DNA of 24,660 bases, from the UHGV virus genome UHGV-2140017. One strand, given 5' to 3'. The notes under the pieces were generated by a model. That model was given only the letters and a program-made list of their open reading frames with translations, made no database searches and was not told the DNA's origin. Shown one piece after another: positions 3,191 to 24,476 of this stretch. The DNA is from a virus. The first letter of the stretch is position 1. Every line of letters starts with the position of its first letter. Position numbers and translations under genes: made by a program.

Positions 3191-3216
3191 TAAAAAAACC
3201 CGCTCGCTGGCGGGTT
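3191..3216 (-). terminator. tR'-like intrinsic terminator ending a short 6S-like leader transcript downstream of Q1
   Basis: Minus-strand CCCGC-CAGCGA-GCGGG hairpin followed by TTTTTTTAT, about 30-40 nt after the predicted start site. Confidence 0.6.
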
Positions 3217-3238
3217 AATCAACGTTGAACATACAAAG

Positions 3239-3283
3239 CCCATCGTTATAGATAAAATTACACAAAAGCGGCAACTTTGCAAG
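3239..3283 (-). promoter_or_regulatory. PR'-like late promoter with putative qut region
   Basis: Minus strand reads TTGCAA-N16-TAATTT followed by ...AACGATGGG, close to my recollection of lambda PR' (TTGACT-N17-TAAATT...AACGATGGG). Lies between Q1 stop and the terminator above. Confidence 0.5.
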
Positions 3284-3298
3284 TAACGTGTCGCTAAA

Positions 3299-4129
3299 TT
3301 ATGCGATATTTATCAAATCAGACACATTTGTCACACGTTTAAGCTGTGAGTCGGTATAACTCTCTTCCTCAAAGCATTTTGTAACAAGACTTTCATAGAA
3401 AGGTTTCCAGCTGTATCGCCAGGTTCGTTCTGGCAGACCAGGCAGCTCAGAGAGCATACCCCTGTAAGCATTTGAAGACTTAGGACGACTATAACCGCGG
3501 CCTTCACAACGTTTACACACTTTGTAGACAGGCACTCCCTGCAGCTCTGACTCTTTACGGTCCAGGGTTTTTCCCGTACCGCCACACTGGCATCGCTTGC
3601 TGATTTTCCCGGTGCCGCCACATTTGAAGCAAAGAACATGGTCAACCTCTTCCACCTGACGTTTTACTTCAAAATCCGAAGGTGACTGCCTGAGGTCTTT
3701 TGCCCATTGCGGTAATCTCATTGTGTAGTGGCTTTTTTCCACCATTGAGGTTTTTTTTATGAAGCCTGAACCAGAACACTTCCTGCAATCTACGCTGTCA
3801 GCTGCAGACGAGGCATAGTCGTTATAAGCGAACCGAGCTATTATCAGCATACACAGAGGGAACTTCTTCCCTGCTGCTTTTCTTATTGATCTAGGCGCTT
3901 TTGATTTTGCATATTCAGCCAACCAACTGACGGATGCCTTTCTGTCGTGTTCGCTGATTCCAGCTTTACCCAAAAACATTGACAGGCCTATTCCTGCCTC
4001 TGCCTGGGTCATCCCCAGTGCGGCCATTACATCTGTCACAGTGAGTTGCTCGCTGGCGGTTGCACGACCGCTATCGGAAATATGCATTCCTTTGGGCGCG
4101 AAAAATTTGGGAATTGATTCAATATTCAT
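3299..4129 (-). CDS. Q: Lambda-type antitermination protein Q (late gene regulator)
   Basis: Colinear with lambda Q from memory: N-terminal SDSGRATASEQLTVTDVMAALGM, central FAYNDYASSAADSVDCRKCSGSG, C-terminal CKRCEGRGYSRPKSSNAYR and PERTWRYSWKPFYESLVTKCFEEES. Start at ATG 4129 (MNIES) has GGAG upstream; the ORF-track start at 4147 is GTG. Confidence 0.85.
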   Translation of the reverse strand: MNIESIPKFFAPKGMHISDSGRATASEQLTVTDVMAALGMTQAEAGIGLSMFLGKAGISEHDRKASVSWLAEYAKSKAPRSIRKAAGKKFPLCMLIIARFAYNDYASSAADSVDCRKCSGSGFIKKTSMVEKSHYTMRLPQWAKDLRQSPSDFEVKRQVEEVDHVLCFKCGGTGKISKRCQCGGTGKTLDRKESELQGVPVYKVCKRCEGRGYSRPKSSNAYRGMLSELPGLPERTWRYSWKPFYESLVTKCFEEESYTDSQLKRVTNVSDLINIA

Positions 4130-4147
4130 GCTCAGTACTCCATACAC

Positions 4148-5203
4148 TCAAGCTTTTACAATGACGCCGATACCCATTACCCGATCCAGAAAACGAGCCC
4201 ACAGCTCTAACTGAGTGCCATATTTCTTTTCGAACTCTGATGTATTGGCGTGTAATTCATCGTGATGCACTCTGCACAGTGGTATCACGAAGAGATCATG
4301 GGCCTTGGTGCCAGTTCCCCCCAGACCATTCCCTATTATATGGTGTGGATCGTCTGATGGTTGCCTGCAGCATTCACATGGCTGAGTTTTAACCCAACGA
4401 GTGTAAACTTCGCAGGTCCAGCGCCGGCGCTTTGGGCGGCGCATAAATGATTCGGGGCTGTTCGGATCGACACTAAGCCTCAGAATGGGTTCACTTTCAA
4501 TCTGAGGTTGCTCAATGAGTACGCTGGCGTCCGCCAGGTCTATGCCCTCAACAAGATCCTGAAGGATTTCACCTGCAGCAAATGACGGGACAATATCGCT
4601 ATCCTTATAAACGGACAGGAAAGGTTCATCAGGCAGTCTTAAGGCCTGTTGCGCCATCGTCTCGGTTATTGCGTCAGCAATGCCGGATTTCACAGCCCAC
4701 CAGCAGAGCTCCGCCATCGATAATTCGCGCTCCTTATTGTATCCAAGGCTGATCAGCACCCTTTCAATCACCCACTGAACCAGATTCTGATAAGCCAGCT
4801 CTGACAACATTTCGGTGGTCTGCTCACGTAATTCATTATCACAATGCCAGCAGACAACCATGGCGCCAGGCGGATGCCGCATAGTCACTAATTCATGGTG
4901 GTGATAGTGGGAATGCGGGTACTGGCACTCTCTGACATGTCGTAGAAGCCAGGCCTCAAGAGCGTTAATTCCACCAGCTGCGTTAATAACCCTCTCATCC
5001 CTCATGAAAAAACGCAGAATGTCCATTTCTGCAAGGGGCTGACGTGCATCGGCGATCCGCCCAGTGGGCAGTGTTTTCATCTTCTCTGGCTGACGCTCTA
5101 TCAGGACACGGCCGCCGGTAAAGAGAGACATCAATTCGCGGCCTGGTTTGAAAAGAACAACGCCCAGGCGCGGCACAATTTCCGGAGTAAGCAATGCTCG
5201 CAC
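4148..5203 (-). CDS. DUF968-family prophage protein (HNH-like zinc-binding C-terminus)
   Basis: C-terminal WVKTQPCECCRQPSDDPHHIIGNGLGGTGTKAHDLFVIPLCRVHHDELH matches my recollection of DUF968 proteins (YdfU-like). GTG start with a G-rich RBS. Confidence 0.55.
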   Translation of the reverse strand: MRALLTPEIVPRLGVVLFKPGRELMSLFTGGRVLIERQPEKMKTLPTGRIADARQPLAEMDILRFFMRDERVINAAGGINALEAWLLRHVRECQYPHSHYHHHELVTMRHPPGAMVVCWHCDNELREQTTEMLSELAYQNLVQWVIERVLISLGYNKERELSMAELCWWAVKSGIADAITETMAQQALRLPDEPFLSVYKDSDIVPSFAAGEILQDLVEGIDLADASVLIEQPQIESEPILRLSVDPNSPESFMRRPKRRRWTCEVYTRWVKTQPCECCRQPSDDPHHIIGNGLGGTGTKAHDLFVIPLCRVHHDELHANTSEFEKKYGTQLELWARFLDRVMGIGVIVKA

Positions 5204-5211
5204 AATCCCCC

Positions 5212-5736
5212 CTAAACAGTCAGATCTTTAAGCTTCTGCACGGCTTTCCCAACTTCAGCCATAGCATCTACGAACTCGTCAAACTTCCTGCTGGCCATTC
5301 CATATGCCTGGAGAATCTCCAACTTCAAGGGATCGAGCTGTTTCTTAATTTCTGCACGATCCCCGGCTTTTTTCTCCGCTTCCTCTGCCGCTTTGATCAA
5401 GGCGTCAGCCTGTTTACGTAATGCTTCCGGAGTTACTTCGAGTTGTTTATTCATTTTGCATTCCATCGTCGGCTGAGGAGGTGTCATTACAGGCGCCACA
5501 GATTTGTGACCATATTTCGGGTGGTGCAAGGTAGTAGACCTTCCATCATCTATCACGCAGAGCATCCCGCTTTCCCGGATTATTTCGATCAGGGTCTCTT
5601 TGTCTTTGCGATTGAGCCCACTGTATGCCGCCACTTTGTGCGTCAGGTGGGTTAGCGTTGCGCCTTCTGGTTGCCTCTCTACAAAACGCTTTACCCTGGA
5701 AAGCACTGGTTGCAGGTGTGGGGGAGTTATTCTCAT
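5212..5736 (-). CDS. Hypothetical protein: N-terminal winged-helix-like region, C-terminal coiled coil
   Basis: Compact spacing to both neighbours; AAGGTG RBS before ATG 5736 (MRITPP...). C-terminal 70 aa is K/E/A-rich heptad-like. No family recognised. Confidence 0.45.
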   Translation of the reverse strand: MRITPPHLQPVLSRVKRFVERQPEGATLTHLTHKVAAYSGLNRKDKETLIEIIRESGMLCVIDDGRSTTLHHPKYGHKSVAPVMTPPQPTMECKMNKQLEVTPEALRKQADALIKAAEEAEKKAGDRAEIKKQLDPLKLEILQAYGMASRKFDEFVDAMAEVGKAVQKLKDLTV

Positions 5737-5745
5737 GTTCACACC

Positions 5746-6576
5746 TTACTGCGTGACAACGCCAATGAGCTTTAAAAGCTCAGGAAATTTCGATTCGAAG
5801 AAGTGCGGTTGCGTCTCACGTGGATTTGCCGGGCTGGTGATGTTTTTACCGTACAGACAACCTTTTGCCGTAACAGACCAGAATCTTTTCACGCCATTGA
5901 TACCCGTTCGGCTGCGGCGCTCCTTCTGCTCGACTATGCCGTGACCAGCCATAAGGTGATAAGCCTGGTTCGCGGTCATTCTGATGTTGTTAGCTTTAAG
6001 CAAAGCGCTAAGAGACAGCGTTGGTCTGCTGGAACCATCCTGCGCGCCAGCTGGTGCATCAATGGAATATGAAGGCATTAAATCAGGCAGCCCTGCTACC
6101 TGCTGAAGCTTCTGATATGCCCCGAGCTTTGACGAATTAGAGAGATTGAGCATTTTGGCTGCAGATTCCAGGAGGATTATGCCAGCTTGAATACGATCGG
6201 TATTGACGGTTGCAGCCCCAGCAGTGTGGAGCGCGTCAAACGTTCTGATGACCTTCAGATTAAAAACAGCGCTGATCCACATCGCGTAGGCATACACCAA
6301 CTCACGGCAAACATAGGTACCTTGCTCATTTCCGCCGCGGATGACACTTACAGGTTCTGAAATATCCGAGTTGCTATTTTGCAACTCGCCTATCAATTGC
6401 GCAGTTTGTTCGTTGCGGAGCCAGAATGCAGGCTTATGGCGGTCAAGGGAGCCGGAAGCACGATGGAGATCGTTTAGGCAATAACGACCAAGGACATCAC
6501 GACGAACAGAAATACCATCAATAACAAAAAAAGTGTGATTATTGGATGCAGCAGCACCCATGACGTGGTTAGTCAT
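5746..6576 (-). CDS. KilA-N domain protein with ~170 aa C-terminal extension
   Basis: N-terminal FFVIDGISVRRDVLGRYCLNDLHRASG...VIRGGNEQGTYVCRELVYAYAMWIS fits KilA-N. Start at ATG 6576 (MTNHV) preceded by GGAG. Confidence 0.65.
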   Translation of the reverse strand: MTNHVMGAAASNNHTFFVIDGISVRRDVLGRYCLNDLHRASGSLDRHKPAFWLRNEQTAQLIGELQNSNSDISEPVSVIRGGNEQGTYVCRELVYAYAMWISAVFNLKVIRTFDALHTAGAATVNTDRIQAGIILLESAAKMLNLSNSSKLGAYQKLQQVAGLPDLMPSYSIDAPAGAQDGSSRPTLSLSALLKANNIRMTANQAYHLMAGHGIVEQKERRSRTGINGVKRFWSVTAKGCLYGKNITSPANPRETQPHFFESKFPELLKLIGVVTQ

Positions 6577-6664
6577 AGCTTTCTCCATACATTTTTATGT
6601 GACGAAGGGCCTGCACGCCCGTTTCGTTTGCACTCTTTGACATTACTGCCATATCGGCGAACTT

Positions 6665-7063
6665 TCAACCCACAGCTGTACATGTATCCACCACTTTTTG
6701 ATAGCAGACTATGGTGATTTCTACCCTACCTCCTTCGACGATTTCACCCCATTCAATAGCCATACGCTTAACCTGGTTGTCGTCCTCCCAGATACCGGCA
6801 TAAGTCAAAGCATCAAGAAGTGCCTTGTTGAAATTATCCAGGTCACGCCGGCGATAGTCTGGCGGATAGAGAATAATTTCTACCGCTGCTGGCGCGGTAG
6901 ATGGTTTTGGTATTGCACGCAGTTGCTCAATGATCGCTGACCGTACTGCATGTTTGAATTTACGGCCGGCTGCGCTGACAAGGTGTTTACCTTTTGCGGG
7001 CCCCTTATTTGGGGACCGCCAGTAGGTGTTCACGCTGGGTGGGAATGGAAGAATAAATTTCAT
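6665..7063 (-). CDS. rusA: Crossover junction endodeoxyribonuclease RusA (Holliday junction resolvase)
   Basis: PFPPSVNTYW and RRRDLDNFNKALLDALT motifs align with E. coli RusA (PWPPSNNRYY, RRRDLDNLQKAAFDALT). ATG start overlaps the upstream stop (ATGA). Confidence 0.9.
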   Translation of the reverse strand: MKFILPFPPSVNTYWRSPNKGPAKGKHLVSAAGRKFKHAVRSAIIEQLRAIPKPSTAPAAVEIILYPPDYRRRDLDNFNKALLDALTYAGIWEDDNQVKRMAIEWGEIVEGGRVEITIVCYQKVVDTCTAVG

Positions 7064-7536
7064 TCTGCCTCCAGCACTATTTTCAACTCAAACGGAACAT
7101 CTCCTCCGCAATAGCAGAGCGGGCCAAGGTCAGACATGAGGCTCCACAGGGTCACTGACGTATAGCCATTTTCGTCTGTTATCGGGGGCGAAAAGTCCCC
7201 GAAGATCCTCGGGTGCTGGATTCGATTCTGCTCGTGTTGTTTTTCCAAATGTCTGAGGGAAACTTCATTAAGTTTCACTTTTACGATGCTGTTGAGATTG
7301 ACCGATATTTCTCTGGCCAACAGCGAAGGGGTGATACTGATACCGCGAGAAACCCCGCGGGTGATTGTGATAACACCCTTTTTCTCCAACGCCTTGAGGT
7401 GCGTTGCTGCTGCATTGGGGGACCGGCACCCCAGCATGCCGGTCAGTTCGTAAGTTGTAGGCGGAAAACCATGTTTACGCTGATATTCGATCAGGAGGTC
7501 CAGGACCTCCTGCTGCCTTAAGGTCAAGGAAGTCAT
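7060..7536 (-). CDS. LexA-N-terminal-type DNA-binding domain protein without an S24 peptidase domain
   Basis: LTLRQQEVLDLLIEYQRKHGFPPTTYELTGMLGCRSPNAAATHLKALEKKGVITITRGVSRGISI matches the LexA winged-helix domain; C-terminal ~80 aa unrecognised, no Ser/Lys dyad motifs. ATG 7536 overlaps the methyltransferase stop (ATGA). Confidence 0.6.
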   Translation of the reverse strand: MTSLTLRQQEVLDLLIEYQRKHGFPPTTYELTGMLGCRSPNAAATHLKALEKKGVITITRGVSRGISITPSLLAREISVNLNSIVKVKLNEVSLRHLEKQHEQNRIQHPRIFGDFSPPITDENGYTSVTLWSLMSDLGPLCYCGGDVPFELKIVLEAE

Positions 7537-9503
7537 GCTGCCTGCTCCTCTCTGTTCACGCACATTTCGGGTAAATTGGCGCGAACCAGCGCTTCGGCGA
7601 ACGGCGGCGGGACGGCATTTCCACAGCGCGCAACCTGCTTATCTTTCGCGTATTTCACGCCGCGGTAATCCTGGTCAATGATGTACCACTCGGGGAAGCC
7701 CTGCGCCCGGTAAAGTTCGTGTGGCTGCAGCATGCGCATGCCGATATCAACGATGCGGTAAGTCACTCCGCCGATTTCCACCAGCCCGGTGCATTCCTCT
7801 CCGCAGTATTCCTGCAGGAACGACAGCACCTGCTGCGCTCGCTCTTCGTCATAGTCCTCGACTGCCAGAGTCGTTTTAACCTCGCCTACGTGCTGGCCAC
7901 CAGCAGTGATAGTCGGCATCGGCTCGTCAGTGCGCTGGCCATCGCGGCATGTACCACGGAGCTTGATCAGATGAGACGTAACCATTGCGGCATCAGCCTT
8001 TGTCGTCATGGTTTGCAATGGCTCGCTAACGTCACGTGGCCTGCTCTGCCCAGCGCGACCGCCAACACCAACAATCTGAGCAGTAACCAGCGCATGATGA
8101 TCGACGGTAGTAACTGAATGAGCTGGTTCATCCAAGTCAATACCGGCGCCCTGATAATTCCCGCCATAGTGTTTCGCCAGGAATGCGGATACCAGTTGCG
8201 ATTTACCGCCGCCGCCCGCGGTGATTGTTGCGCTAGGTTCGTCGGCACGGTGTCCGATGCTGGCGCCGAACTGCCGGGCGATAACCGGAGCGACGACACA
8301 GGCGCGCGATTCTTTCATGATGGTGTGAGCGGGTTTATCGAGCGGGCGTGGTTTAGCCTGGTACTCGCTGCCGCCATTGCCAGCCAGGAACGGAGCCAGC
8401 TCTGCTTCAACAATACCCATAGCGTGACCATTCCCGTCCGGGCGCCTGGACGTGCCGGCGGTCACTGTCGGCAACGGATCGGTGACTTCCTGCCCGGTAG
8501 CTCCGGTTCGGAATTTTGTCAGATGAGGTACCGCAATTGCGTAGCCGTGGGTTTTCGTAATCGTCTGTAGCGGATCGTCCAGCGCCTGTCCCCGGAAACA
8601 GTCGTATTTGCCACGTGTCGTTGTGTGATTGCACTTCACAATGAATGGCGAAGCACTTTCGATAACAAAGCGCTGAATGCCGCGGGCAATCCGTTTTAGC
8701 GTATTCTCTGCCAGTGACTTTTTGCGACCGAAGATGCTCGGCGCGGGGATTGACCAGTCTATGCATTCCGCAGCTGTACGCCATGGCTCCAGCTGGCCCG
8801 CCAGCACGGCGGCAGACTTCGGATCCCCGTGCGTGGCTTCCGGCCAGACTATCGGTTTCCCGTCCCGGCGCATCACCATGAAGAACCGCTTACGGATGGT
8901 CGGCGCGCCATAATCGCAGGCGCGCAGCTCGCGAAAATCGACGACATAACCCAGCCCGGCAATTAAGCGCTTGGCCTGCTCGCTATCCGGTGAAAACTCC
9001 AGAAACTCGCAACACTCCACCAGTGCAGGATGATCTGCTGGAATACCGGTGGTAAGCATCCCGACAAATGCATTGAAAGTTTCACCGATGCGTGCCGGAT
9101 CCGGTCGCATTTCTGCCGCGAGTAACGGACCCCATGTTTTGAACTCTTCGACGTTTTCCAGCATCATGACTCGCGGGCCAACATCCAGCGCCCAACGAAT
9201 GACGATCCATGCCAGCCCTCGAATAGCTTTCTCTACTGGTTTAGCACCTTTCGCTTTAGAAAAGTGACGACAGTCAGGCGAGAACCATGCCAGGCCGACA
9301 GGCTTGCCACTGGTAGCGGCTAATGGAGATACATCAAACACACTTTCGCAATAGTGAAGCGTGTCGGGATGGTTAGTGCGGTGCATAGCAACGGCGTTAA
9401 CATCGTGGTTAATCGCGATATCAACGCTACGCCCTATCGCCAGCTCAATACCTGTACTGGCGCCACCGCCACCAGCAAAATTATCGACAATAATCTCACG
9501 CAT
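7533..9503 (-). CDS. DNA (cytosine-5)-methyltransferase, 656 aa, with an expanded repeat-containing variable region
   Basis: C5-MTase motifs in canonical order: I DNFAGGGG, IV-like FSPDCRHFS, VI MMLENV, IX RMLQPHELYRAQGFPEWY, X ARCGNAVPP. Residues ~300-545 hold seven tandem D/E-x-P-x-x-T-[IVM]-T modules. Confidence 0.85.
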   Translation of the reverse strand: MREIIVDNFAGGGGASTGIELAIGRSVDIAINHDVNAVAMHRTNHPDTLHYCESVFDVSPLAATSGKPVGLAWFSPDCRHFSKAKGAKPVEKAIRGLAWIVIRWALDVGPRVMMLENVEEFKTWGPLLAAEMRPDPARIGETFNAFVGMLTTGIPADHPALVECCEFLEFSPDSEQAKRLIAGLGYVVDFRELRACDYGAPTIRKRFFMVMRRDGKPIVWPEATHGDPKSAAVLAGQLEPWRTAAECIDWSIPAPSIFGRKKSLAENTLKRIARGIQRFVIESASPFIVKCNHTTTRGKYDCFRGQALDDPLQTITKTHGYAIAVPHLTKFRTGATGQEVTDPLPTVTAGTSRRPDGNGHAMGIVEAELAPFLAGNGGSEYQAKPRPLDKPAHTIMKESRACVVAPVIARQFGASIGHRADEPSATITAGGGGKSQLVSAFLAKHYGGNYQGAGIDLDEPAHSVTTVDHHALVTAQIVGVGGRAGQSRPRDVSEPLQTMTTKADAAMVTSHLIKLRGTCRDGQRTDEPMPTITAGGQHVGEVKTTLAVEDYDEERAQQVLSFLQEYCGEECTGLVEIGGVTYRIVDIGMRMLQPHELYRAQGFPEWYIIDQDYRGVKYAKDKQVARCGNAVPPPFAEALVRANLPEMCVNREEQAA

Positions 9504-13146: not shown

Positions 13147-13155
13147 AACACCTCC

Positions 13156-17149: not shown

Positions 17150-17281
17150 TTGCTCTCCATTAAATCCCCGTCGTTGCGGGGATTTATTAAAGCGTAATCC
17201 TGCAATTAATCGCCACCTGGCGAGGGATTCCTACACCCAAAAATCAGCGCTGTGCAGAGCGCAATTAAATGGAGAAATACG

Positions 17282-17809: not shown

Positions 17810-18009
17810 TGCCACACGTGAAAGTGAAAGAATTGGTTGCTGCAGCGTACGCTACGGCACCTGACCTACCACCAGCAGCAGCCCAATTAATGCAAGACAT
17901 AGCGTCAAGGCTGGATGTGACCTTTGTCGCCCTTACAGAGGCAATGGACCAGAACACCGCTATGGCCGCGATGATAGCGAACCTGAGCGAGGAAAACAGA
18001 AATGGCTAA
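17809..18009 (+). CDS. Hypothetical small protein (66 aa)
   Basis: ATG overlaps the upstream stop (TAATG); its stop overlaps the ParB-like start. No family recognised. Confidence 0.4.
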   Translation: MPHVKVKELVAAAYATAPDLPPAAAQLMQDIASRLDVTFVALTEAMDQNTAMAAMIANLSEENRNG

Positions 18010-19191: not shown

Positions 19192-19379
19192 GCAAACTAA
19201 ACACGAAGCAACTCGAGATTCTTTCAGTAATAGCTTCCGGTGAGCGTCCCTACGCAACCTGGCGGCAATCACTCAAAGCGCTACAGAGAAGGGGGCTGAT
19301 TACCCTCACTAGCTGCGGATACTCAATTACGACAGCAGGTTTGTCAGCGCTAAAGCAGGAGGTGCCGCATGACAACTGA
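19188..19379 (+). CDS. Hypothetical small protein (63 aa)
   Basis: ATGA overlap with the upstream stop; part of a translationally coupled chain. No family recognised. Confidence 0.4.
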   Translation: MSKLNTKQLEILSVIASGERPYATWRQSLKALQRRGLITLTSCGYSITTAGLSALKQEVPHDN

Positions 19380-19878
19380 TATCACCGAACTTGCGCAGCG
19401 CAACGAACTGCTGATTGCAAACGGGCAGCAGACAGCCGACCTGCTACGCCACCTGGCAGATAACGAAATTGATTCTGACTATTTTGCCGTTGTGTCGGAG
19501 TGCGAAAGCTACGGGAAAGAAACTGACGCTGAGTTATCGATCACGGAGTTTGCCCTCCGTGCCGCTGGCTATGTTGATGCGCTGGTAGAGGCACTGGAGA
19601 AGGCGCAGGCAGGCGAGAAGCAATGGCGCGAAGTTGTCGATGCGTTCTGCACTGATGACGCCGACTGGCACAATCTGACTAACTCAAACAATGAGCTGAT
19701 TGCTCTTTTGTCTCAGGCCTTGTGCAAGCAAGCAGACCGCATCGCCGAGCTGAAGTCCCGCACTGTGAAGTTGCCGCGCCCTGGGTTCATCACCATCTCA
19801 GGTGAGCGCATGGCCGTTTATTTGAAAGGTGATGTTGATGCAGCAATGTTGGCTGCAGGCATTGAGGAGGCTGAGTAG
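19369..19878 (+). CDS. Hypothetical protein (169 aa)
   Basis: ATG start overlapping the upstream gene by 11 nt; acidic, helical. No family recognised. Confidence 0.45.
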   Translation: MTTDITELAQRNELLIANGQQTADLLRHLADNEIDSDYFAVVSECESYGKETDAELSITEFALRAAGYVDALVEALEKAQAGEKQWREVVDAFCTDDADWHNLTNSNNELIALLSQALCKQADRIAELKSRTVKLPRPGFITISGERMAVYLKGDVDAAMLAAGIEEAE

Positions 19879-20211
19879 ATGGATAAGCCACTTAACAAGC
19901 GCGAACGCGAATATATCAAACCGGCTGTCATTTATGACTGGGAAATTCATCTTTGGCCAGGCCGCAAAGATGGTGTCTGGGATGGCGATAAGATACTGCC
20001 AGTAAAGGTTGGTGCTATGGCTGAATCACTGATTAAAAGGGGATATCTGGAGAGGCTTGGGAGTGTAATTCGTGCCACCGAAAAGACGAAGGCGCTGAAG
20101 TGCCGCGCAGGTAACTGTTTATATGGTCGCCTTTATGACGATAACGATGTTGATTCGGGGAAGTGCCCTGATTGCGATGGCGGCATGATGTTTGAAGGAG
20201 CCAACCAATGA
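19879..20211 (+). CDS. Hypothetical protein (110 aa) with C-terminal zinc-ribbon
   Basis: Starts right after the upstream stop; C-terminal CRAGNC-x16-CPDC cysteine pairs. Confidence 0.45.
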   Translation: MDKPLNKREREYIKPAVIYDWEIHLWPGRKDGVWDGDKILPVKVGAMAESLIKRGYLERLGSVIRATEKTKALKCRAGNCLYGRLYDDNDVDSGKCPDCDGGMMFEGANQ

Positions 20212-20777
20212 CAAATAATCAGTTAACCAGAGAACGGCTGGAAAAAATTAAATCATGGCGTGAAACCTACGGTGCTGGAAGCAACGTAATGCTGCCAGCG
20301 GAAGAGGCTGAGGAACTGGCCCGCATGGCGCCGGCCGCAATGGACAGCGAGCCAGTTGAGATGCCTCTCGACTACCTGCAGGGGCACAAAGACGGTCTGG
20401 AGTGGGCCGCCCAACTGGCAGAGTCCAATCACCCTCAGACCGGAGACTGGCTTTACGATGACCCTATCGAGCTGGCAAAAGCTATTCGCAAAGGTCCAGA
20501 TATGCCGCCAGCGCAGCCGGTAGCGGACAGCGAGCCGGTGGCGTGGCTTCTGTCAGGCGGTGGCGCTAAAAACGTGGTGTGCTTTGATAGTGGCAATGCA
20601 TATGCAGACCCATTGCGTGAGGTGACGCCGCTCTATCGCCACGCACAGCCAGCGCCGGTAGTGCCAGATGAAATAAAGCACCGCATCGGTGGATTGGATT
20701 GGGGATGGGAAGGCGAGTTTAATCGCGGCTGGAACGCCTGCCGCGCCGCCATGCTCAACGGAGGTAACGATGAGTAA
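20208..20777 (+). CDS. Hypothetical protein (189 aa), possibly Ead/Ea22-like
   Basis: ATGA overlap with the upstream stop. Repeated EPV-x-W segments recall Ea22-like early-region proteins; weak memory-based call. Confidence 0.35.
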   Translation: MTNNQLTRERLEKIKSWRETYGAGSNVMLPAEEAEELARMAPAAMDSEPVEMPLDYLQGHKDGLEWAAQLAESNHPQTGDWLYDDPIELAKAIRKGPDMPPAQPVADSEPVAWLLSGGGAKNVVCFDSGNAYADPLREVTPLYRHAQPAPVVPDEIKHRIGGLDWGWEGEFNRGWNACRAAMLNGGNDE

Positions 20778-21285
20778 TTTTAACGGATTTACTGGCAACA
20801 ATGACCCTGTTTACTACTCACGCAAAACCGAAAAAGCAGATGGTGCCCTCACTGGTGAGGATACCAAGCAGGCCGGCAACTCTCCGGTAATTCCAGAGGG
20901 TTACGTGATGGTGCCGAAGGAGCCCACAAAAGAGATGATTGATGCCGGGTGGCTGCACTTCATGGGCACCAAGAACCCTTCATCAAAAGTCACATACAAA
21001 GCCATGCTCGCAGCCGCCCCGCATGACACCCCCGCTCTCAACTCGCTACAGAGCGTCGATAGCGTTGCTGGTAAATGGATTCCGGTAAGCGAGCGGATGC
21101 CGGAGGATGAGCAGGAGGTGCTCACCATAAACAGAATGGGGCATTGCTTTGTATCATTCTTCGATAAGCACTCAGGGCTGTTTTTCGACAGGATTGATGC
21201 GCCAGCAGCATGCTGCATAGAGCACGTGCTGGTAACCCACTGGATGCCGCTGCCAGCCGCACCGCAGGAGGTGCAAGGTGATTAG
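20770..21285 (+). CDS. DUF551-domain phage protein
   Basis: C-terminal KWIPVSERMPEDEQEVLTI...VTHWMPLPAAP fits the DUF551 signature; N-terminal VMVPKEPTKEMIDAG is common in this class. ATG 20770 preceded by GGAGGT. Confidence 0.6.
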   Translation: MSNFNGFTGNNDPVYYSRKTEKADGALTGEDTKQAGNSPVIPEGYVMVPKEPTKEMIDAGWLHFMGTKNPSSKVTYKAMLAAAPHDTPALNSLQSVDSVAGKWIPVSERMPEDEQEVLTINRMGHCFVSFFDKHSGLFFDRIDAPAACCIEHVLVTHWMPLPAAPQEVQGD

Positions 21286-21420
21286 TATATTGTTCTTCCT
21301 TGATGACGAATTGTTTTACTGGATATTCATCAGTGGGGTGGGTTCATCTGGCTTATTCATCGGTGAGGTTGGCGATGCCTAAATCCCCCGCAGAACGTAA
21401 AGCCTCCAGTTGAAATCAAA

Positions 21421-21444
21421 CCCCTCTCCTGAGGGGTTTTCTCG
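21421..21444 (+). terminator. Intrinsic terminator upstream of ninB (tR2-like position)
   Basis: CCCCTC-TCCT-GAGGGG hairpin followed by TTTTCTCG; the reverse complement also ends in a T-rich tract, so possibly bidirectional. Confidence 0.55.
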
Positions 21445-21631
21445 TATATGCTCATTTTGCTTTTATCCCCGGGAAGGGCGATAATTACCTGGTCAGTCTG
21501 GGCAACTGACGACTTTACCCCGGCGCCAAGTGGGGACACATGGCGCACAAAACCTTAAAGCAATACCTGTCACCGATGGCGAAAGTCACCGGCGATTTTC
21601 TGCATTCTGCGGTTTCCGTTAAGGAGGCCGT

Positions 21632-22087
21632 ATGACTCTTCCAGTAGACGGCATCAAACTCCATCGCGGCAACTTCGCGGCCATCGGCCAGCAGATTCAA
21701 CCATTGCTGGATGCCGGGCAATGTTTCCGCTTGCAGATTAAGCCATGGCGCGAGAAGCGCAGCCTGTCGCAGAACGCCCTCAGCCACATGTGGTACACGG
21801 AAATCAGCGAATACCTGATTAACTCCGGGCGTACCGACGCAACCCCTGAGTGGGTTAAGCGCAACCTCAAAAAGACCTATCTCGGCTGCGAAGAGGTGAC
21901 CTACACCGACTTCATTACCGGTGAGAAGACCACCACCTGGGAGCCTCGCCACACTGCCGACCTTGATACCGGGGAAATGCACATTTTTCTGGTGAAGGTT
22001 GAAATGTGGTGCGCCCAGTTTGGCCTGGCCCTGACTATCCCAAGCGGTTGCGAGTACCAGCAACTGCGCGATAAGCAGGAGGCGTGA
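21632..22087 (+). CDS. ninB: NinB recombination protein (Orf family)
   Basis: KRSLSQNALSHMWYTEIS aligns with lambda NinB (NRSLDQNRKLWACLGDVS); AAGGAGG RBS; followed by ninE/ninG homologues. Confidence 0.8.
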   Translation: MTLPVDGIKLHRGNFAAIGQQIQPLLDAGQCFRLQIKPWREKRSLSQNALSHMWYTEISEYLINSGRTDATPEWVKRNLKKTYLGCEEVTYTDFITGEKTTTWEPRHTADLDTGEMHIFLVKVEMWCAQFGLALTIPSGCEYQQLRDKQEA

Positions 22088-22257
22088 TGAGCTGCCTTCT
22101 CGCAAAAGTCGTTGAGCGCGGCATCTTCCGCATTCCTGCTCGCCGCAAGCGCAAAGCCGAAGTTAAACCTTCCGACATCCCGACCCTGAAAGGCTATACG
22201 GCCCGTCTGGTCGACAAGAAGTGGCTTTGCCTGAGAGCAAGGAGGCAACATGCTTAA
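22087..22257 (+). CDS. ninE: NinE-like small protein (56 aa), absent from the ORF track
   Basis: MSCLLAKVVERGIFRIPARRKRKAEVKPSDIPTLKGYTARLVDKKWLCLRARRQHA; C-terminal half resembles lambda NinE (...[20 protein letters not shown]). TGATG overlap with ninB stop; 8-nt overlap with ninG. Confidence 0.5.
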   Translation: MSCLLAKVVERGIFRIPARRKRKAEVKPSDIPTLKGYTARLVDKKWLCLRARRQHA

Positions 22258-22831
22258 TCGTACTCAGCGCCGCTGCAAAATCTGTCGGGCGAAGTTTACC
22301 GCGACATTTGAGAATCAACGCTGGTGCTGCCCTGAGCATGGCGCTGAATTCGCCATGCAGGAACTGGAGAAGAAGCGCGAAAAGCAGGCCCAGGCAAAAG
22401 CGAAGAAAGAGCGCGCAACCTGGCGCAAGCGCAAAGCCGCGGTGAAACCTCTCAGGCACTGGGAAGATATGACCCAGCGTGTTGTTAACGACTATATCCG
22501 CGAACGAGACCATGATCTGCCGTGCATCAGCTGCGGCACGTTCGACACGGTTCAGTGGGAGGCCGGACACTACCGCTCCCGCGGGAAAGCATCTCACCTG
22601 CGCTACAACGAGGACAACATTCACAAGCAGTGCCATCACTGCAACGTGCAGATGTCAGGTAACCAGCAGCAGTACCGCATCGGCCTGGTAGAGAAAATCG
22701 GCGCTGAGCGCGTCGAGGTCCTCGAAAACAACAACACCCCTCACCGATACACCATCGAAGAACTGGAAGGCATCAGGCGCCATTACAGCGCGCTACGCCG
22801 TGCGCTCATAAAACAACGGGAGGCCGCATGA
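22250..22831 (+). CDS. ninG: NinG (Rap) recombination endonuclease
   Basis: RRCKICRAKFTATFENQRWCCPEHG and ERDHDLPCISCGT...QWEAGHYRSRG...LRYNEDNIHKQCHHCN are colinear with lambda NinG from memory. Confidence 0.85.
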   Translation: MLNRTQRRCKICRAKFTATFENQRWCCPEHGAEFAMQELEKKREKQAQAKAKKERATWRKRKAAVKPLRHWEDMTQRVVNDYIRERDHDLPCISCGTFDTVQWEAGHYRSRGKASHLRYNEDNIHKQCHHCNVQMSGNQQQYRIGLVEKIGAERVEVLENNNTPHRYTIEELEGIRRHYSALRRALIKQREAA

Positions 22832-23052
22832 GCAAAATCCAATACCCAATGTCCACTGCTGCTGTTTTTGATGACGTGGTCTATCCCATCCGCCTGAGCG
22901 GACAGCATCAGATAGAGAGCGAAGTTATGGGCGCGATCAGTTGGTTCTGCCGGTGGAACAATGAGGAAATAGCCGTCGTTAAGGCGCATGTGCTGTTTAG
23001 CTGCTGGGGTCTTTACCTGACGTATGACCAGCTTATGGCGGAGGCCGCATGA
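22828..23052 (+). CDS. Hypothetical nin-region protein (74 aa)
   Basis: ATGA overlap with ninG stop; coupled to downstream ORFs. No family recognised. Confidence 0.4.
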   Translation: MSKIQYPMSTAAVFDDVVYPIRLSGQHQIESEVMGAISWFCRWNNEEIAVVKAHVLFSCWGLYLTYDQLMAEAA

Positions 23053-23267
23053 AGATCACCTATAGCGACGAAGGGGCTTACGCTCGCATCTGGCTGACCG
23101 GTCCATTTTGGCAACTGGCTAAGGCAAGGCGTATTGCGGATGCGGGTCTGGACGAGTCCCCGGTCAATACCTGGGAGTCTCGCGGCATCACCTTCCAGAT
23201 CACCCTGTACGGGAAAAGCGCATATGTGCTCAGGGCGTATAAGGCCATGGCGAGGGCATCCAAATGA
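23049..23267 (+). CDS. Hypothetical nin-region protein (72 aa)
   Basis: ATGA overlap with the upstream stop. No family recognised. Confidence 0.4.
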   Translation: MKITYSDEGAYARIWLTGPFWQLAKARRIADAGLDESPVNTWESRGITFQITLYGKSAYVLRAYKAMARASK

Positions 23268-23404
23268 GCCGTGACGTTATCGAACGCATCCGCGACCGCT
23301 GGATAAAGCTTCGCCTTTTACGCAGCAGCGGCACCGTACTGGTTGACTACCGCATCCTCAAGAATTTCGTTCGCATCTATCAGACCCTGGGAGAGAAAGC
23401 ATGA
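23264..23404 (+). CDS. Hypothetical 46-aa protein, absent from the ORF track
   Basis: MSRDVIERIRDRWIKLRLLRSSGTVLVDYRILKNFVRIYQTLGEKA; ATGA overlaps at both ends link it into the ninG-to-Q2 chain. Confidence 0.35.
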   Translation: MSRDVIERIRDRWIKLRLLRSSGTVLVDYRILKNFVRIYQTLGEKA

Positions 23405-24093
23405 TTAACACTCAATACCTCCAGTATGTTCGCCAGCAGCTGATAGTGGCCACCGCCGATCTGAGCGGCGCGACGAAAGGGCAACTGGTAGCCTTTGCTG
23501 AGAATGCTCAATTCGCGGCGACGGCGCGCAGCCGGGGAAGGAAGAAAGTAGCCGATCCGGTCACCGGGCGCATGGTAAACCCATCAAACCCGCCAATCCC
23601 CGGACAGCAGTCCCGCGCGAAAGGTTCCGCAATCGCCCTCGTTATGCCCGTTGAGTACTCGACAGCCAGCTGGCGCCGCGCGCTGCTGTCGCTGGAAGAG
23701 CATCAGAAAGCGTGGCTGCTCTGGAACTACAGCGACAATATCCGCTGGGAGAACCAGGAGACGATCACCCGGTGGGCATGGGAGCAATTCAAAGAAAAGC
23801 TGGCCGGTGTGCGCATTGCAAAGAAAACAGTCGATCGCCTGCGTCAGCTTATCTGGCTGGCGGCGCAGGATGTGAAAGCCGAGCTGGCAGGCCGGGAGAC
23901 TTATGAATACCAAAAGCTTGCTTCTGTGGTCGGCGTGACCCCGAAGAACTGGTCAGAAACGTTTACGGAGCGGTGGGAGGAGATGAAAAGGACCTTGCTG
24001 AGCCTTGATAGCGATTCTCTTTTGCAGGTTACGCGATCACGTTCACAACAAAAGGCGACAAATTTAGACTCAAGTCTTGCAAAACTGGATTAA
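23401..24093 (+). CDS. Putative Q-like late antiterminator (QuuQ-type by position and size), cysteine-free
   Basis: 230-aa W-rich protein in the Q position: after ninB-ninE-ninG, directly upstream of a promoter-like element and a hairpin+T6 terminator. No cysteines, so not a lambda/82/21-type zinc-finger Q. Possible C-terminal HTH (QKLASVVGVTPKNWSETF). Confidence 0.4.
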   Translation: MINTQYLQYVRQQLIVATADLSGATKGQLVAFAENAQFAATARSRGRKKVADPVTGRMVNPSNPPIPGQQSRAKGSAIALVMPVEYSTASWRRALLSLEEHQKAWLLWNYSDNIRWENQETITRWAWEQFKEKLAGVRIAKKTVDRLRQLIWLAAQDVKAELAGRETYEYQKLASVVGVTPKNWSETFTERWEEMKRTLLSLDSDSLLQVTRSRSQQKATNLDSSLAKLD

Positions 24094-24106
24094 ATGAGTC
24101 ATATTT
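24077..24106 (+). promoter_or_regulatory. Candidate late promoter downstream of the Q-like gene
   Basis: TTGCAA-N17-CATATT followed by TTTGAGTCACC, overlapping the end of the Q-like gene. Weak -10. Confidence 0.35.
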
Positions 24107-24182
24107 GAGTCACCTTTGATATGCTGCCTTAACTTTAAGTGGCGGCATGAAGATGATAGTCGCACACCAGTTTGCAAAGTTA

Positions 24183-24208
24183 GCCTCGGCATCCGCCGGG
24201 GCTTTTTT
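24183..24208 (+). terminator. Intrinsic terminator closing a ~100 nt leader RNA (tR'-like)
   Basis: GCCTCGGC-ATCC-GCCGGGGC hairpin (8 bp, one G-U) followed by TTTTTTAT. Confidence 0.6.
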
Positions 24209-24454
24209 ATGTCCGCAATCCGGTCAGGGCTCTTGAGTGAATGCGTGCCGCACTACACGTTGAAGCTCATACGCGAGAGTCCTGAGCCAAATTGCTGATT
24301 TTGCTCAGCAGCGCCAGATAATGGCCTGACCTGATGACGGGCTCATAATCCAATCCATCAGGGGCGTTGTTAGCGCAACGCCAAAGGCCGCCATATCCCC
24401 TGCCTTGGGACCCTTACGGCTACCGCGCCGTCATTTTTACCCTTGGTATTCCTT

Positions 24455-24476
24455 CCCGCCTTGAGCGGGTTTTTTA
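24455..24476 (+). terminator. Second intrinsic terminator in the late leader
   Basis: CCCGC-CTTGA-GCGGG hairpin followed by TTTTTTATTAT. Confidence 0.5.

What the first reader, a model, noticed from the sequence alone, without database searches (positions are those of the whole stretch)
3191..24476. One immunity region flanked by two outward-facing antiterminator modules of different families
On the minus side the cro operon ends in a clear lambda-type Q with a lambda-like PR'/qut (AACGATGGG) and a tR'-like terminator. On the plus side the operon ends in a different, cysteine-free Q-like protein with its own promoter-like element and terminators. PL-type genes (ParB-like, DUF551, Ea-like) are also co-oriented with PR-type nin genes on the plus side. 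Either two prophage modules are fused head to head around one repressor, or a mosaic phage carries two late-control units. The YfdQ/YfdR-like synteny recalls the E. coli CPS-53 element, so this may be a recurring architecture.
Basis: partly seen in the sequence, partly recalled or inferred. Interest (0 to 1): 0.6.

Follow-up and report, generated by a model that had tools for sequence, protein, structure and literature searches.

The report
Two prophage halves joined at repeat
The two outward-facing late-gene switches are real in the sequence, but they belong to two different, individually ordinary Klebsiella prophages whose halves are joined inside a 466-base gene cassette that both carry, so this is a recombination or assembly junction and not a new kind of phage control circuit.

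Summary
A Q-lambda-family antiterminator (3299-4129, minus) with a lambda-like late promoter, AACGATGGG and a terminator faces left. A cysteine-free Q82-family antiterminator (23401-24093, plus) with its own terminators faces right. One CI/Cro region with repeated operators lies between them.

The architecture is a composite. Window 1-20331 is 99.99-100% identical to a common icd-integrating prophage "A". In 22 of the 24 longest contigs carrying it, including complete chromosomes, its PL arm runs on into xis-int-icd. Window 20205-24660 is 100% identical to the nin-Q end of the PR operon of lambdoid prophages "B".

The switch lies in an exact shared cassette R1 (19866-20331), which occurs in PL arms and PR arms of different phages. 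Every public contig carrying this exact B piece breaks at R1. The junction was found nowhere else. The window is an entire 24,660-base JGI/IMG contig whose ends also lie in inter-prophage repeats.

I cannot tell an in-cell recombination from an assembler mis-join, and put it at roughly 40:50. A single phage with two late switches is topologically implausible. CPS-53 has no second Q. Interest is low.

The parts
1..134 (-). STnc100-like unit with its own promoter-like TTGACG-18-TAAATT (134-105). It lies just upstream of prophage A's holin and is a repeat shared among Klebsiella prophages. It forms the left contig end.
   Evidence: Rfam RF02076 scores 53.6 bits against a gathering score of 47. 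Promoter scan. Copies of 97% identity lie between Q and holin in L025 and L051. The first 100 nt match L051 exactly.
334..3148 (-). Accessory genes between Q_A's leader and the lysis genes: a 63-aa ORF (2897-3088), an N6/N4 DNA methyltransferase (1668-2747), an HNH/AP2 endonuclease-like gene (891-1391) and a TerB-like gene (334-759). Extra terminators sit at 2907-2890 and 1471-1452.
   Evidence: Gene calls and Pfam marks on identical contigs. Homing-endonuclease hit in PADLOC. Terminator scan.
3190..3282 (-). Late promoter and leader of prophage A. Elements are -35 TTGCAA (3282-3277), -10 TAATTT (3260-3255), a -10-like pause element AACGAT (3247-3242, within AACGATGGG 3247-3239) and the terminator hairpin 3216-3197 with a U tract.
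   Evidence: Sequence. The 9-mer is unique, with 0.16 expected. Terminator scan. Folding gives -18.9 kcal/mol, z -2.75.
3299..4129 (-). Q_A, an antiterminator of the Q-lambda family. It carries a roughly 56-aa insertion with an extra CxxCxGxG motif.
   Evidence: PF03589, E 3e-45. PDB 7UBM lambda Q, E 3e-43, full length in two blocks. Start at 4129 taken from gene calls on identical contigs.
4148..13146 (-). PR-type early operon of prophage A. Gene order is Cro, YmfL/CII-like, DUF4222, replication protein (Phg_2220_C), a 152-aa gene, Dam, Dcm, a LexA-DBD protein, RusA, KilA-N, a 176-aa gene and DUF968.
   Evidence: Pfam. NCBIfam YmfL. The same order occurs in E. coli and Klebsiella prophages and in phage Kp4866-6.
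13156..14019 (.). The single immunity region. It holds OR operators (13156-13169, 13178-13191, 13201-13214), cI (13244-13876, plus), the cI terminator (13891-13910), OL operators (13977-13990, 14001-14014) and the PL-like promoter TTGACT-18-TATTAT (13990-14019).
   Evidence: ACAG-N6-CTGT gives 6 hits against 0.26 expected. Repeat families. Promoter and terminator scan. Pfam HTH plus Peptidase_S24.
14123..19865 (+). PL-type arm of prophage A. Genes are a 77-aa gene, YfdP (15894-16265), YfdQ/DUF2303 (16322-17149), YfdR-like (17282-17809), a 66-aa gene, ParB-HTH (18002-18787) and genes of 135, 63 and 169 aa. A minus-strand insert 14590-15655 lies within it.
   Evidence: 99.99-100% identical to canonical prophage A contigs. 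Pfam.
19866..20331 (+). R1, the shared cassette in which the sequence switches from A to B. It comprises the 110-aa gene (19879-20211) plus the first 41 codons of the next gene. The crossover interval directly shown is 20205-20331 (127 nt identical in both parents). The first discriminating base is 20332.
   Evidence: A-type identity ends at 20356, with one mismatch at 20332. B-type contigs start at 20205, 20213 and 20277, which is 20332 minus k for k = 127, 119 and 55. The left boundary 19866 recurs in L051, L056 and L057. The A contig L005 ends at 19920, which is 19866 + 54.
20332..23404 (+). Distal PR-operon (nin) segment of a lambdoid prophage B. It holds a split DUF551 gene (20208-20777 and 20770-21285), NinB/YbcN (21632-22087), NinE (22087-22257), NinG (22250-22831), genes of 74 and 72 aa, and YlcG (23264-23404).
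   Evidence: 100% identical to L014 and L016, and 99.95% to L009. Pfam, PHROG and NCBIfam. The same genes lie in PR arms of canonical prophages L059, L060 and L071.
23401..24093 (+). Q_B, an antiterminator of the Q82 family. It has no cysteine.
   Evidence: PF06323, E 1.7e-87. The exact protein lies upstream of holin, endolysin and terminase in canonical lambdoid prophages. Homologues are annotated as Q in Klebsiella phages and Gifsy-1.
24095..24660 (+). Late leader of prophage B. Elements are the direct repeat TGAGTCA-N4-TGAGTCA (24095-24112), a candidate extended -10 TGATATGCT (24117-24125), the terminator 24182-24203, a tRNA remnant, terminators 24416-24431 and 24455-24469, and the holin start at 24593. 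The last 90 nt are an exact repeat of prophage A's own holin region and form the right contig end.
   Evidence: Sequence and alignment. Terminator scan, 3 found against 0.9 expected. Fold. Intact tRNA-Thr at the same place in L006. Exact suffix matches.

Best explanation
The window is a composite of two unrelated, individually canonical temperate phages of Klebsiella. It is not one element built with two late switches.

Piece A (1-20331):
- It is the early region of an icd-integrating prophage of the ST64B / Kp4866-6 / CPS-53 type.
- CI (S24 autopeptidase) holds OR and OL.
- PR runs leftward through cro, replication, Dam/Dcm, RusA and DUF968 to a Q-lambda-family Q. Its own PR'-pause-terminator cassette opens A's lysis and morphogenesis genes further left.
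- PL runs rightward through yfdP-yfdQ-yfdR and ParB. In the normal phage it ends in xis-int-att.

Piece B (20205-24660):
- It is the far end of the PR operon of a lambdoid prophage: DUF551, NinB, NinE, NinG, YlcG and a Q82-family Q with its own leader and terminators in front of holin.

The join:
- The two pieces meet inside R1, a 466-base cassette (19866-20331) that is identical in both phages and sits in the same orientation relative to PL of A and PR of B.
- An exchange in R1 therefore automatically puts B's nin-Q-lysis end downstream of A's PL arm and removes A's xis-int.
- That exchange was made either by the assembler or by homologous recombination between two resident prophages (inversion or deletion). 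I slightly favour the assembler, about 0.5, because this is a whole short-read contig bounded by inter-prophage repeats. I put in-cell recombination at about 0.4.

Shown: the identities of both pieces, the repeat and its boundaries, the families of both Q proteins, and the operator, promoter and terminator motifs.
Inferred: the activity of each cassette and the origin of the join.
For: - Window 8002-20356 is 99.99% identical to CP166215.1 (L004). There, and in 22 of the 24 longest contigs carrying the 169-aa gene, the arm continues 110 aa - 236 aa - Exc - Int - icd.
- Window 1-11391 is 100% identical to L029, which runs on into holin, endolysin, terminase and portal.
- Window 20205-24660 is 100% identical to L014.
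- The exact Q_B protein normally follows cI|cro-cII-O-P-...-NinE-NinG-YlcG and precedes holin and terminase.
- The same NinB, and the same B-type split DUF551 gene, lie in PR arms of canonical prophages.
- The only A/B mismatch before the break is at 20332. All B contigs begin exactly k bases before it, and an A contig from the same sample ends at 19866 + 54.
- The left edge of R1, 19866, is a recurrent mosaic boundary, and the identical 110-aa protein occurs in both PL arms and PR arms.
- The junction is absent from GTDB representatives, IMG/VR (22, 26, 27), JGI metagenomes (33, 34), E. coli complete genomes (6), GenBank phages and plasmids.
- The junction-spanning 189-aa protein is on record only on one 24,660-base JGI/IMG contig, which is this window.
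- Both contig ends lie in repeats.
- An isolate scaffold links A's arm to another lambdoid remnant through a 16-N gap placed inside R1.
- Q families and the definition of the cassette: and PMC9388147.
Against: - Nothing here shows which process made the join. A real recombinant and a mis-join give the same sequence.
- The contig has no Ns. Assemblers usually break at an unresolved 466-base repeat rather than mis-join, which argues for real read support in that sample.
- An intact B parent with this exact R1 copy was never seen assembled, so B's left side is inferred from graph break points and from related prophages.
- The promoter and pause element of the Q82-type cassette are only candidates.
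Confidence: 0.88

Rival explanations
1. Origin of the join, version 1: assembly chimera. The sample held prophage A and prophage B, in one genome or in two strains. The assembler walked from A's PL arm through the shared 466-base cassette into B's nin-Q end. The two-Q layout would then exist only in the contig.
For: - The window is a whole 24,660-base JGI/IMG contig. Its two ends sit in other inter-prophage repeats.
- R1 is exact. At 466 bases it is probably longer than the reads of a short-read library (the library behind this contig is not known).
- All six public contigs with this exact B piece start at 20332 minus k. An A contig from the same sample stops in R1, which indicates an unresolved two-in, two-out repeat.
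- A scaffolder made an analogous A-to-lambdoid link over a 16-N gap inside R1 in GCA_902161885.1.
- No other record of the junction was found.
- Canonical A is common, including in complete chromosomes.
Against: - There are no Ns at the join.
- Modern assemblers normally stop at such repeats unless read pairs or coverage support a path.
- No read data are available.
Confidence: 0.5
2. Origin of the join, version 2: real homologous recombination between two resident prophages. This would be an inversion if R1 copies are inverted on the chromosome, or a deletion if they are direct. The product is a locked-in, non-excisable double-ended prophage. On SOS induction, CI cleavage would fire PR towards Q_A and A's late genes. 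PL could read through into NinB-NinG-Q_B and turn on B's late genes.
For: - The switch lies in perfect homology, in the orientation that recombination requires.
- The contig is continuous.
- R1-type cassettes are shuffled between arms and phages in nature.
- OL/PL sits directly upstream of the arm.
- Large rearrangements between resident prophages are established knowledge in enterobacteria.
Against: - No independent occurrence was found in any collection, and no reciprocal junction was seen.
- Q_B's exact protein is never on a contig longer than 0.2 Mb.
- The one apparent second example is an N-gap scaffold link.
- Terminator-like sites at 21423-21436 and 21600-21612, and a convergent minus-strand block at 14590-15655, lie between PL and Q_B. 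Read-through to Q_B is therefore unproven.
Confidence: 0.38
3. A single functional mosaic phage that carries two late-control units around one immunity region.
For: Only the layout itself: two complete Q-promoter-terminator cassettes and one repressor.
Against: - There is no int, xis or att in the window. The canonical relative has them exactly where the B piece begins.
- On contigs identical to each outer end of the window, each arm runs on into its own lysis cassette, terminase and portal. That gives more than 70 kb with two outward late regions.
- In circular form, A's late genes are reached through att-int on the PL side. One crossover with B therefore gives an unpackageable cointegrate. 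A double crossover through the lysis cassettes is excluded by their opposite orientation (inference).
- No phage or viral contig shows the layout.
Confidence: 0.03
4. A recurring CPS-53/KpLE1-like architecture in which a yfdQ-yfdR arm normally leads to a second antiterminator.
For: The yfdP-yfdQ-yfdR synteny is real and widespread.
Against: - In E. coli K-12 CPS-53 the arm ends yfdS-yfdT-ypdJ-torI-att with no Q.
- In the E. coli relative L001 it ends in exonuclease-int.
- In the Klebsiella prophage it ends in xis-int-icd.
Confidence: 0.02

Closest known systems
Lambda Q / PR' / qut / tR' late-gene cassette (Q-lambda family, Pfam PF03589; PDB 7UBM, 4MO1)
   Same: - Q_A aligns with lambda Q over its whole length (E 3e-43), including the zinc-ribbon Cys pairs.
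- The gene is followed by a sigma-70-type promoter, an AACGAT -10-like element at the start of the transcript (identical to lambda's AACGATGGG) and an intrinsic terminator. This is the cassette layout described in PMC9388147.
   Different: - Q_A has a roughly 56-aa insertion with an extra CxxCxGxG motif.
- The leader is about 58 nt, against lambda's 194-nt 6S RNA (lambda figure from my own knowledge).
- About 3 kb of accessory genes and two more terminators lie between the leader and the holin.
- The Q-binding element was not identified.
Phage 82-type Q cassette (Q82 family, Pfam PF06323), as in Gifsy-1 and many Klebsiella lambdoid phages
   Same: - Q_B matches PF06323 end to end (293 bits).
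- It sits after NinG-YlcG and before terminators and the holin, as it does in canonical prophages.
   Different: - No solved structure or sequence relative exists in the PDB.
- The promoter and pause element are only candidates.
- In this contig the cassette lacks its own cI/cro/O/P upstream and is fed, if at all, from another phage's PL arm.
ST64B / Klebsiella phage Kp4866-6 / Citrobacter phiNP-type temperate phages, with E. coli CPS-53 (KpLE1) as a decayed relative
   Same: The gene order is the same: late genes, then (leftward) Q, DUF968, methylases, replication and cro, then cI (rightward) followed by yfdP, yfdQ and yfdR. Identity is 97.7% to Kp4866-6 over 72-12910.
   Different: Those elements end the yfdQ/R arm in recombination-directionality and integrase genes at att. 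Here that end is replaced by the nin-Q end of another phage.
Rearrangements between resident lambdoid prophages, and engineered locked-in prophages such as Mud-P22 (my own knowledge, not tested here)
   Same: There is an exchange in a short identical module shared by two prophages. If real, the product lacks int/xis and would replicate and express late genes in place.
   Different: No independent evidence exists that this exchange happened in a cell. No reciprocal junction and no second genome were found.
Chimeric contigs formed at repeats shared between genomes or prophages in short-read metagenome assemblies
   Same: - The join lies at an exact repeat that is probably longer than the reads of a short-read library.
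- The contig ends lie in other repeats.
- All sister assemblies break at the same place.
- An N-gap scaffold link occurs at the same repeat elsewhere.
   Different: The join is gap-free, and its read support is unknown.

Membership tests
Q-lambda family antiterminator cassette | Protein matches Pfam PF03589 above the gathering score | tested here: met
   152.7 bits against a cut-off of 26.7
Q-lambda family antiterminator cassette | Full-length similarity to lambda Q, including the zinc-ribbon cysteines | tested here: met
   7UBM chain Q, E 3e-43. Residues 7-128 and 185-273 align to lambda 1-125 and 117-206. A 56-aa insertion lies between the blocks.
Q-lambda family antiterminator cassette | Q gene followed by a promoter, a promoter-proximal -10-like pause element and a terminator (PMC9388147) | tested here: met
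   TTGCAA-16-TAATTT-7-AACGATGGG, then the hairpin and U tract at 3216-3190. This is sequence level only.
Q-lambda family antiterminator cassette | Q-dependent read-through into late genes | not testable with these tools
   Late genes follow on identical contigs. Activity needs reporter or RNA-seq experiments.
Q82 family antiterminator cassette | Protein matches Pfam PF06323 above the gathering score | tested here: met
   293.2 bits against a cut-off of 25, covering profile positions 1-218 of 220
Q82 family antiterminator cassette | Promoter with a pause element and a terminator downstream of Q | tested here: inconclusive
   Terminators are clear. Only a candidate extended -10 and the direct repeat TGAGTCA-N4-TGAGTCA were found. 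No pause element was identified.
Q82 family antiterminator cassette | Lysis genes downstream | tested here: met
   The holin ATG is at 24593. On contigs identical to the window over 20205/20277-24660, holin, GH108 endolysin and terminase follow.
Lambdoid immunity region (CI/Cro with OR and OL) | Divergent cI (HTH plus S24 peptidase) and cro, with a repeated operator at both promoters | tested here: met
   Pfam. ACAG-N6-CTGT occurs 3 times at 13156-13214 and 2 times at 13977-14014. The window has 6 hits against 0.26 expected.
CPS-53/KpLE1-like element with a second antiterminator | yfdP-yfdQ-yfdR arm | tested here: met
   PF27127, PF10065 and a YfdR-like protein. The K-12 order is the same.
CPS-53/KpLE1-like element with a second antiterminator | A Q gene at the end of that arm in CPS-53 and its relatives | tested here: not met
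   CPS-53 ends yfdT-ypdJ-torI-att. Relatives end in xis/int.
Single packageable temperate phage genome | Integration module or other prophage ends, one late region, and recurrence in phage collections | tested here: not met
   The window has no int or xis. Two late regions are inferred from contigs identical to the window's outer ends. No such layout occurs in GenBank phages or IMG/VR.
Junction of two prophages at a shared repeat (recombinant or chimera) | Each flank near-identical to a different canonical element | tested here: met
   99.99-100% on both sides
Junction of two prophages at a shared repeat (recombinant or chimera) | Switch point inside sequence identical in both parents | tested here: met
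   A 127-nt overlap (20205-20331) is shown directly. The full 466 nt (19866-20331) is inferred from contig break points and recurrent boundaries.
Junction of two prophages at a shared repeat (recombinant or chimera) | Read-level support that tells a real exchange from a mis-join | not testable with these tools
   No reads are available. The window is the whole contig.

The most novel reading that the evidence does not exclude
The join is real, and the element is a natural locked-in composite prophage. One SOS-sensitive CI would control two different Q switches, Q-lambda type to the left and Q82 type to the right. With no integrase, the element would replicate in place on induction and express two outward-facing lysis and packaging sets. 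It could then package and transfer the host DNA on both flanks, as engineered Mud-P22 locked-in prophages do and as seen in lateral transduction.
Probability: 0.08. Interest if true: 0.5.

Novelty: already known. Interest (0 to 1): 0.15.

Why it matters
It matters mainly as a caution. Short gene cassettes such as R1 sit in the PL arm of one phage type and the PR arm of another. They let recombination, and assemblers, fuse halves of unrelated prophages into layouts that look like new regulatory designs.

Both antiterminator cassettes are ordinary members of known Q families. Neither adds to the open questions about Q82.

The element would have some interest only if the join were shown to exist in cells. 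It would then be a natural non-excisable prophage with two late operons under one repressor, and a possible driver of lateral transduction.

Tried and rejected
Looking for the junction elsewhere. None of these searches found the A-left to B-right join:
- Exact-pattern scans for the R1 core and for a B-specific 22-mer in GTDB representative genomes gave 0 hits each.
- The same patterns gave 3 and 8 loci in IMG/VR and 16 loci in JGI metagenomes.
- Megablast of the window or its right third against E. coli complete genomes, GenBank phages and plasmids found no place covering 80% of the query.
- The exact look-up of the junction-spanning 189-aa protein in the contig index found nothing. The cluster look-up showed only the window's own contig.

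Extending the contig:
- This is impossible, because the window is the whole contig.
- I extended instead through identical contigs.

An apparent second example:
- L066/L069 looked like an independent hybrid.
- I rejected it as proof when the link turned out to be a 16-N scaffold gap inside R1.

Other ideas rejected:
- STnc100 as Q_A's true late promoter. A lambda-like PR' lies directly after Q_A, and the STnc100-like unit also follows Q genes of other families elsewhere.
- A linear-plasmid prophage (N15/phiKO2-like) or a plasmid origin. The same prophage sits in icd in chromosomes, and the plasmid search gave only patchy hits.
- A structured RNA or a defence system in 13850-15950. Rfam at E<=1 and PADLOC gave nothing.

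Not resolved:
- I could not retrieve the phage 82 or phage 21 PR' sequences from the papers held. The Q82-side promoter and pause element therefore stay as candidates.

Full report
WHAT IS IN THE WINDOW

The ORF map and profile searches give a clear gene order.

On the minus strand, reading leftward from 13146:
- Cro (12916-13146)
- a YmfL/CII-like regulator
- DUF4222
- a replication protein with the Phg_2220_C domain
- Dam, then a 656-aa Dcm
- a protein with only the LexA DNA-binding domain
- RusA, KilA-N, DUF968
- a 276/282-aa protein (3299-4129/4147) that matches Pfam PF03589 (Antiterm) at 152.7 bits

On the plus strand:
- CI (13244-13876; HTH plus S24 peptidase)
- a 77-aa gene
- YfdP, YfdQ (DUF2303) and a YfdR-like protein
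- a ParB-HTH protein and several small genes
- a split DUF551 gene
- NinB/YbcN, NinE, NinG, two small genes and YlcG
- a 230-aa cysteine-free protein (23401-24093) that matches PF06323 (Phage_antiter_Q) at 293 bits

According to PMC9388147, PF03589 is the Q-lambda family and PF06323 is the Q82 family. These are two of the three unrelated families of lambdoid Q antiterminators. A Q cassette is defined there as the Q gene followed by a promoter, a sigma-dependent pause element, a terminator and the late genes.

CHECK OF THE OBSERVATION

The left-hand Q aligns with lambda Q (PDB 7UBM) from end to end (E 3e-43). It has a roughly 56-aa insertion that carries an extra CxxCxGxG motif.

Directly after its stop codon, the minus strand reads TTGCAA (3282-3277), 16 nt, TAATTT (3260-3255), 7 nt, then AACGATGGG (3247-3239). 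This is followed by a GC-rich hairpin and U tract at 3216-3190. The 9-mer occurs once in the window, with 0.16 expected. The roughly 58-nt leader folds into the terminator at -18.9 kcal/mol, z -2.75. From my own knowledge of lambda, AACGAT at +1 to +6 of PR' is the pause-inducing element. The geometry here (a -10 hexamer, 7 nt, then AACGAT) is nearly the same.

The right-hand Q is followed by:
- the direct repeat TGAGTCA-N4-TGAGTCA (24095-24112)
- a candidate extended -10, TGATATGCT (24117-24125)
- a strong terminator at 24182-24203, and two more at 24416-24431 and 24455-24469, making 3 found against 0.9 expected
- the holin start at 24593

There is a single immunity region. The palindrome ACAG-N6-CTGT occurs three times between cro and cI. 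It occurs twice just after the cI terminator, where it overlaps a TTGACT-18-TATTAT promoter. The window has 6 hits against 0.26 expected. Two points are weaker: 'Ea-like' was not confirmed by any profile, and the promoter on the Q82 side is only a candidate.

THE TWO HALVES BELONG TO DIFFERENT, CANONICAL PROPHAGES

Left half (prophage A):
- Exact-protein look-ups returned many contigs with the left part of the window.
- Window 8002-20356 is 99.99% identical to a complete 6.15-Mb chromosome (CP166215.1, L004) and 99.94% to a 268-kb scaffold (L003).
- In these, and in 22 of the 24 longest contigs that carry the 169-aa gene, the plus-strand arm continues 110 aa, 236 aa, 77 aa, 92 aa, Exc (xis), integrase, then icd and host genes.
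- Window 1-11391 is 100% identical to L029. There the minus-strand arm continues into holin, GH108 endolysin, terminase, portal and capsid.
- This is an ordinary temperate phage, which I call prophage A. It is related to Klebsiella phage Kp4866-6 (97.7% over 72-12910), ST64B, phiNP and an E. coli prophage with the same order ending in exonuclease-int.
- E. coli K-12 CPS-53 is a decayed relative. Its yfdP-Q-R-S-T arm ends in torI and att, with no Q on that side.

Right half (prophage B):
- Window 20205-24660 is 100% identical to L014 and L016, and 99.95% to L009.
- The exact Q_B protein is otherwise found after cI|cro-cII-O-P-...-NinE-NinG-YlcG and before holin, endolysin and terminase in canonical lambdoid prophages.
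- The identical NinB, and the same split DUF551 gene with a different N-terminus, lie in PR arms of canonical prophages on contigs up to 621 kb.
- An E. coli prophage of Klebsiella type has the same order, with Ea22-like and DUF551 genes inside the PR operon.
- The plus-strand genes right of about 20.3 kb are therefore the far end of another phage's PR operon. I call this prophage B.

THE JOIN

Against canonical A, the window has one mismatch, at 20332 (C instead of T), and then loses all similarity at 20357.

The public contigs with the exact B piece begin at 20205, 20213 and 20277. These positions are exactly 127, 119 and 55 bases before 20332, matching the k values in the names of two of these contigs (k127, k119) and, for the third, an assumed k of 55. 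An A contig from the same sample as one of them ends at 19920, which is 19866 + 54.

Position 19866 is also where three independent contexts begin to match the window. Two are PR arms of lambdoid or P22-like prophages and one is the PL arm of another A-type phage. The identical 110-aa protein occurs in both kinds of arm.

R1 (19866-20331) is thus a mobile cassette shared by A and B. It comprises the 110-aa gene plus 41 codons of the next gene, and it is exact over 466 bases. The A-to-B switch lies inside it: 127 bases of overlap are shown directly, and the rest is inferred.

R1 points away from cI in A and away from cro in B. One exchange in it therefore places B's nin-Q-lysis end after A's PL arm and removes A's xis-int. 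This fully explains the co-orientation of 'PL-type' and 'PR-type' genes and the two outward-facing Q cassettes.

IS THE JOIN REAL?

I looked for the junction in several collections:
- GTDB representative genomes
- IMG/VR
- JGI metagenomes
- E. coli complete genomes
- GenBank phages
- plasmids

None has it.

The junction-spanning 189-aa protein is on record once, on a JGI/IMG contig of exactly 24,660 bases. The window is therefore a whole contig and cannot be extended.

Its first 100 bases are an exact repeat of an STnc100-like unit found in other prophages. Its last 90 bases are an exact repeat of prophage A's own holin region. This is the pattern of a short-read contig bounded by repeats.

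One isolate scaffold (GCA_902161885.1, L066/L069) at first looked like an independent example, linking A's arm to a lambdoid remnant. The link proved to be a 16-N gap placed inside R1, next to a 151-base exact repeat. It shows that scaffolders make such links. It does not show that cells do.

On the other side, the window's join is gap-free, and assemblers usually stop at unresolved repeats. A true recombinant would look exactly like this. I therefore leave the origin open, at about 0.5 for an assembly chimera and about 0.4 for a real inversion or deletion between resident prophages.

WHY IT IS NOT ONE PHAGE WITH TWO LATE SWITCHES

- The window has no integrase.
- Each arm runs on into its own complete lysis and morphogenesis set on contigs identical to that outer end of the window (1-11391 on the left, 20205/20277-24660 on the right). 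The whole would exceed 70 kb.
- In circular form, A's late genes are reached from the PL side through att. A single A x B crossover therefore gives a cointegrate.
- The two lysis cassettes are 97% alike but in opposite orientation relative to R1, so they cannot provide a second crossover. This is inference.

HOW IT WOULD WORK

Each cassette should work as its family does (PMC9388147). Q binds near the late promoter and loads onto RNA polymerase paused by sigma at the -10-like element. It then makes polymerase ignore the leader terminator and later ones.

For Q_A these later terminators include 2907-2890 and 1471-1452, ahead of a methyltransferase, an HNH/AP2 gene and a TerB-like gene, before the holin is reached.

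If the join is real, CI cleavage would fire both arms. Whether PL transcription reaches Q_B is unproven. A convergent minus-strand block (14590-15655) and weak terminator-like sites at 21423-21436 and 21600-21612 lie in between.

VERDICT

The layout is a junction of two ordinary prophages in a shared cassette, possibly made by the assembler. Both Q cassettes are standard members of known families. Novelty is already known, and interest is low.

Noticed in passing
window 1-134 (minus); also L025 3753-3858, L051 15842-15951, L069 about 15990-16090: An STnc100-like sRNA unit (Rfam RF02076, above the gathering score) with its own TTGACG-18-TAAATT promoter sits between the Q region and the holin in several Klebsiella prophages whose Q genes belong to different families. 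It may be an orphan late-leader or a small RNA gene that travels with the lysis cassette.
   Followed up: partly
window 15060-15893: About 800 bases between the minus-strand 156-aa gene and yfdP have no convincing gene. The 199/201-aa ORF called there has a junk-like translation and no family hit. From 15539 the region is conserved at about 77% with an E. coli prophage. Rfam at E<=1, Pfam and PADLOC found nothing.
   Followed up: partly
window 20208-21285: The 189-aa and 198/171-aa ORFs are two frames of one DUF551 gene. It is a single 324-aa protein in L007 and 303-309 aa in many Klebsiella records. The same split is present in the independent contigs L014, L016 and L009, so it is a natural allele and not a sequencing error of this contig.
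   Followed up: partly
window 24290-24400; L006 10894-10969: Downstream of Q_B's leader terminator the window keeps only a remnant of a tRNA. The related prophage L006 has an intact tRNA-Thr(TGT) at the same place, and other phages match this stretch (HK620; KpF5 annotates a tRNA-Thr).
   Followed up: partly
window 3299-4129 (minus), residues 129-184: Q_A carries a roughly 56-aa insertion relative to lambda Q that duplicates the CxxCxGxG zinc-ribbon motif, with a weak DnaJ_CXXCXGXG hit. The same 276-aa form is common in Klebsiella prophages.
   Followed up: no
L069 10667-10682 (GCA_902161885.1, contig CABGTM010000006.1): A public isolate assembly joins prophage A's PL arm to a different lambdoid remnant and then to chromosomal GH31/MFS genes. 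The join is a 16-N gap placed inside the R1 cassette and is probably a scaffolding error in the deposited genome.
   Followed up: yes
window 334-3148 (minus): Four accessory genes and two extra terminators lie between Q_A's leader and the lysis genes. The genes are a 63-aa ORF, an N6/N4 DNA methyltransferase, an HNH/AP2 homing-endonuclease-like gene and a TerB-like gene. The late transcript would need about 3 kb of antitermination before reaching the holin.
   Followed up: no
window 3048-3061: One extra exact match to the operator palindrome ACAG-N6-CTGT lies inside the small ORF just after Q_A's leader terminator. About 0.26 matches are expected in the whole window, so it may be chance.
   Followed up: no
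window 7060-7563 (minus): A 167-aa protein in the PR operon has a LexA DNA-binding domain but no S24 peptidase domain. It could be an uncleavable LexA-like regulator.
   Followed up: no
window 24467-24660 versus L029 11611-11803: The pre-holin region and holin start of prophage B are 97% identical to those of prophage A. In this contig the two copies would face each other as a large inverted repeat around the early region. This is a second source of assembly ambiguity and of possible recombination.
   Followed up: partly
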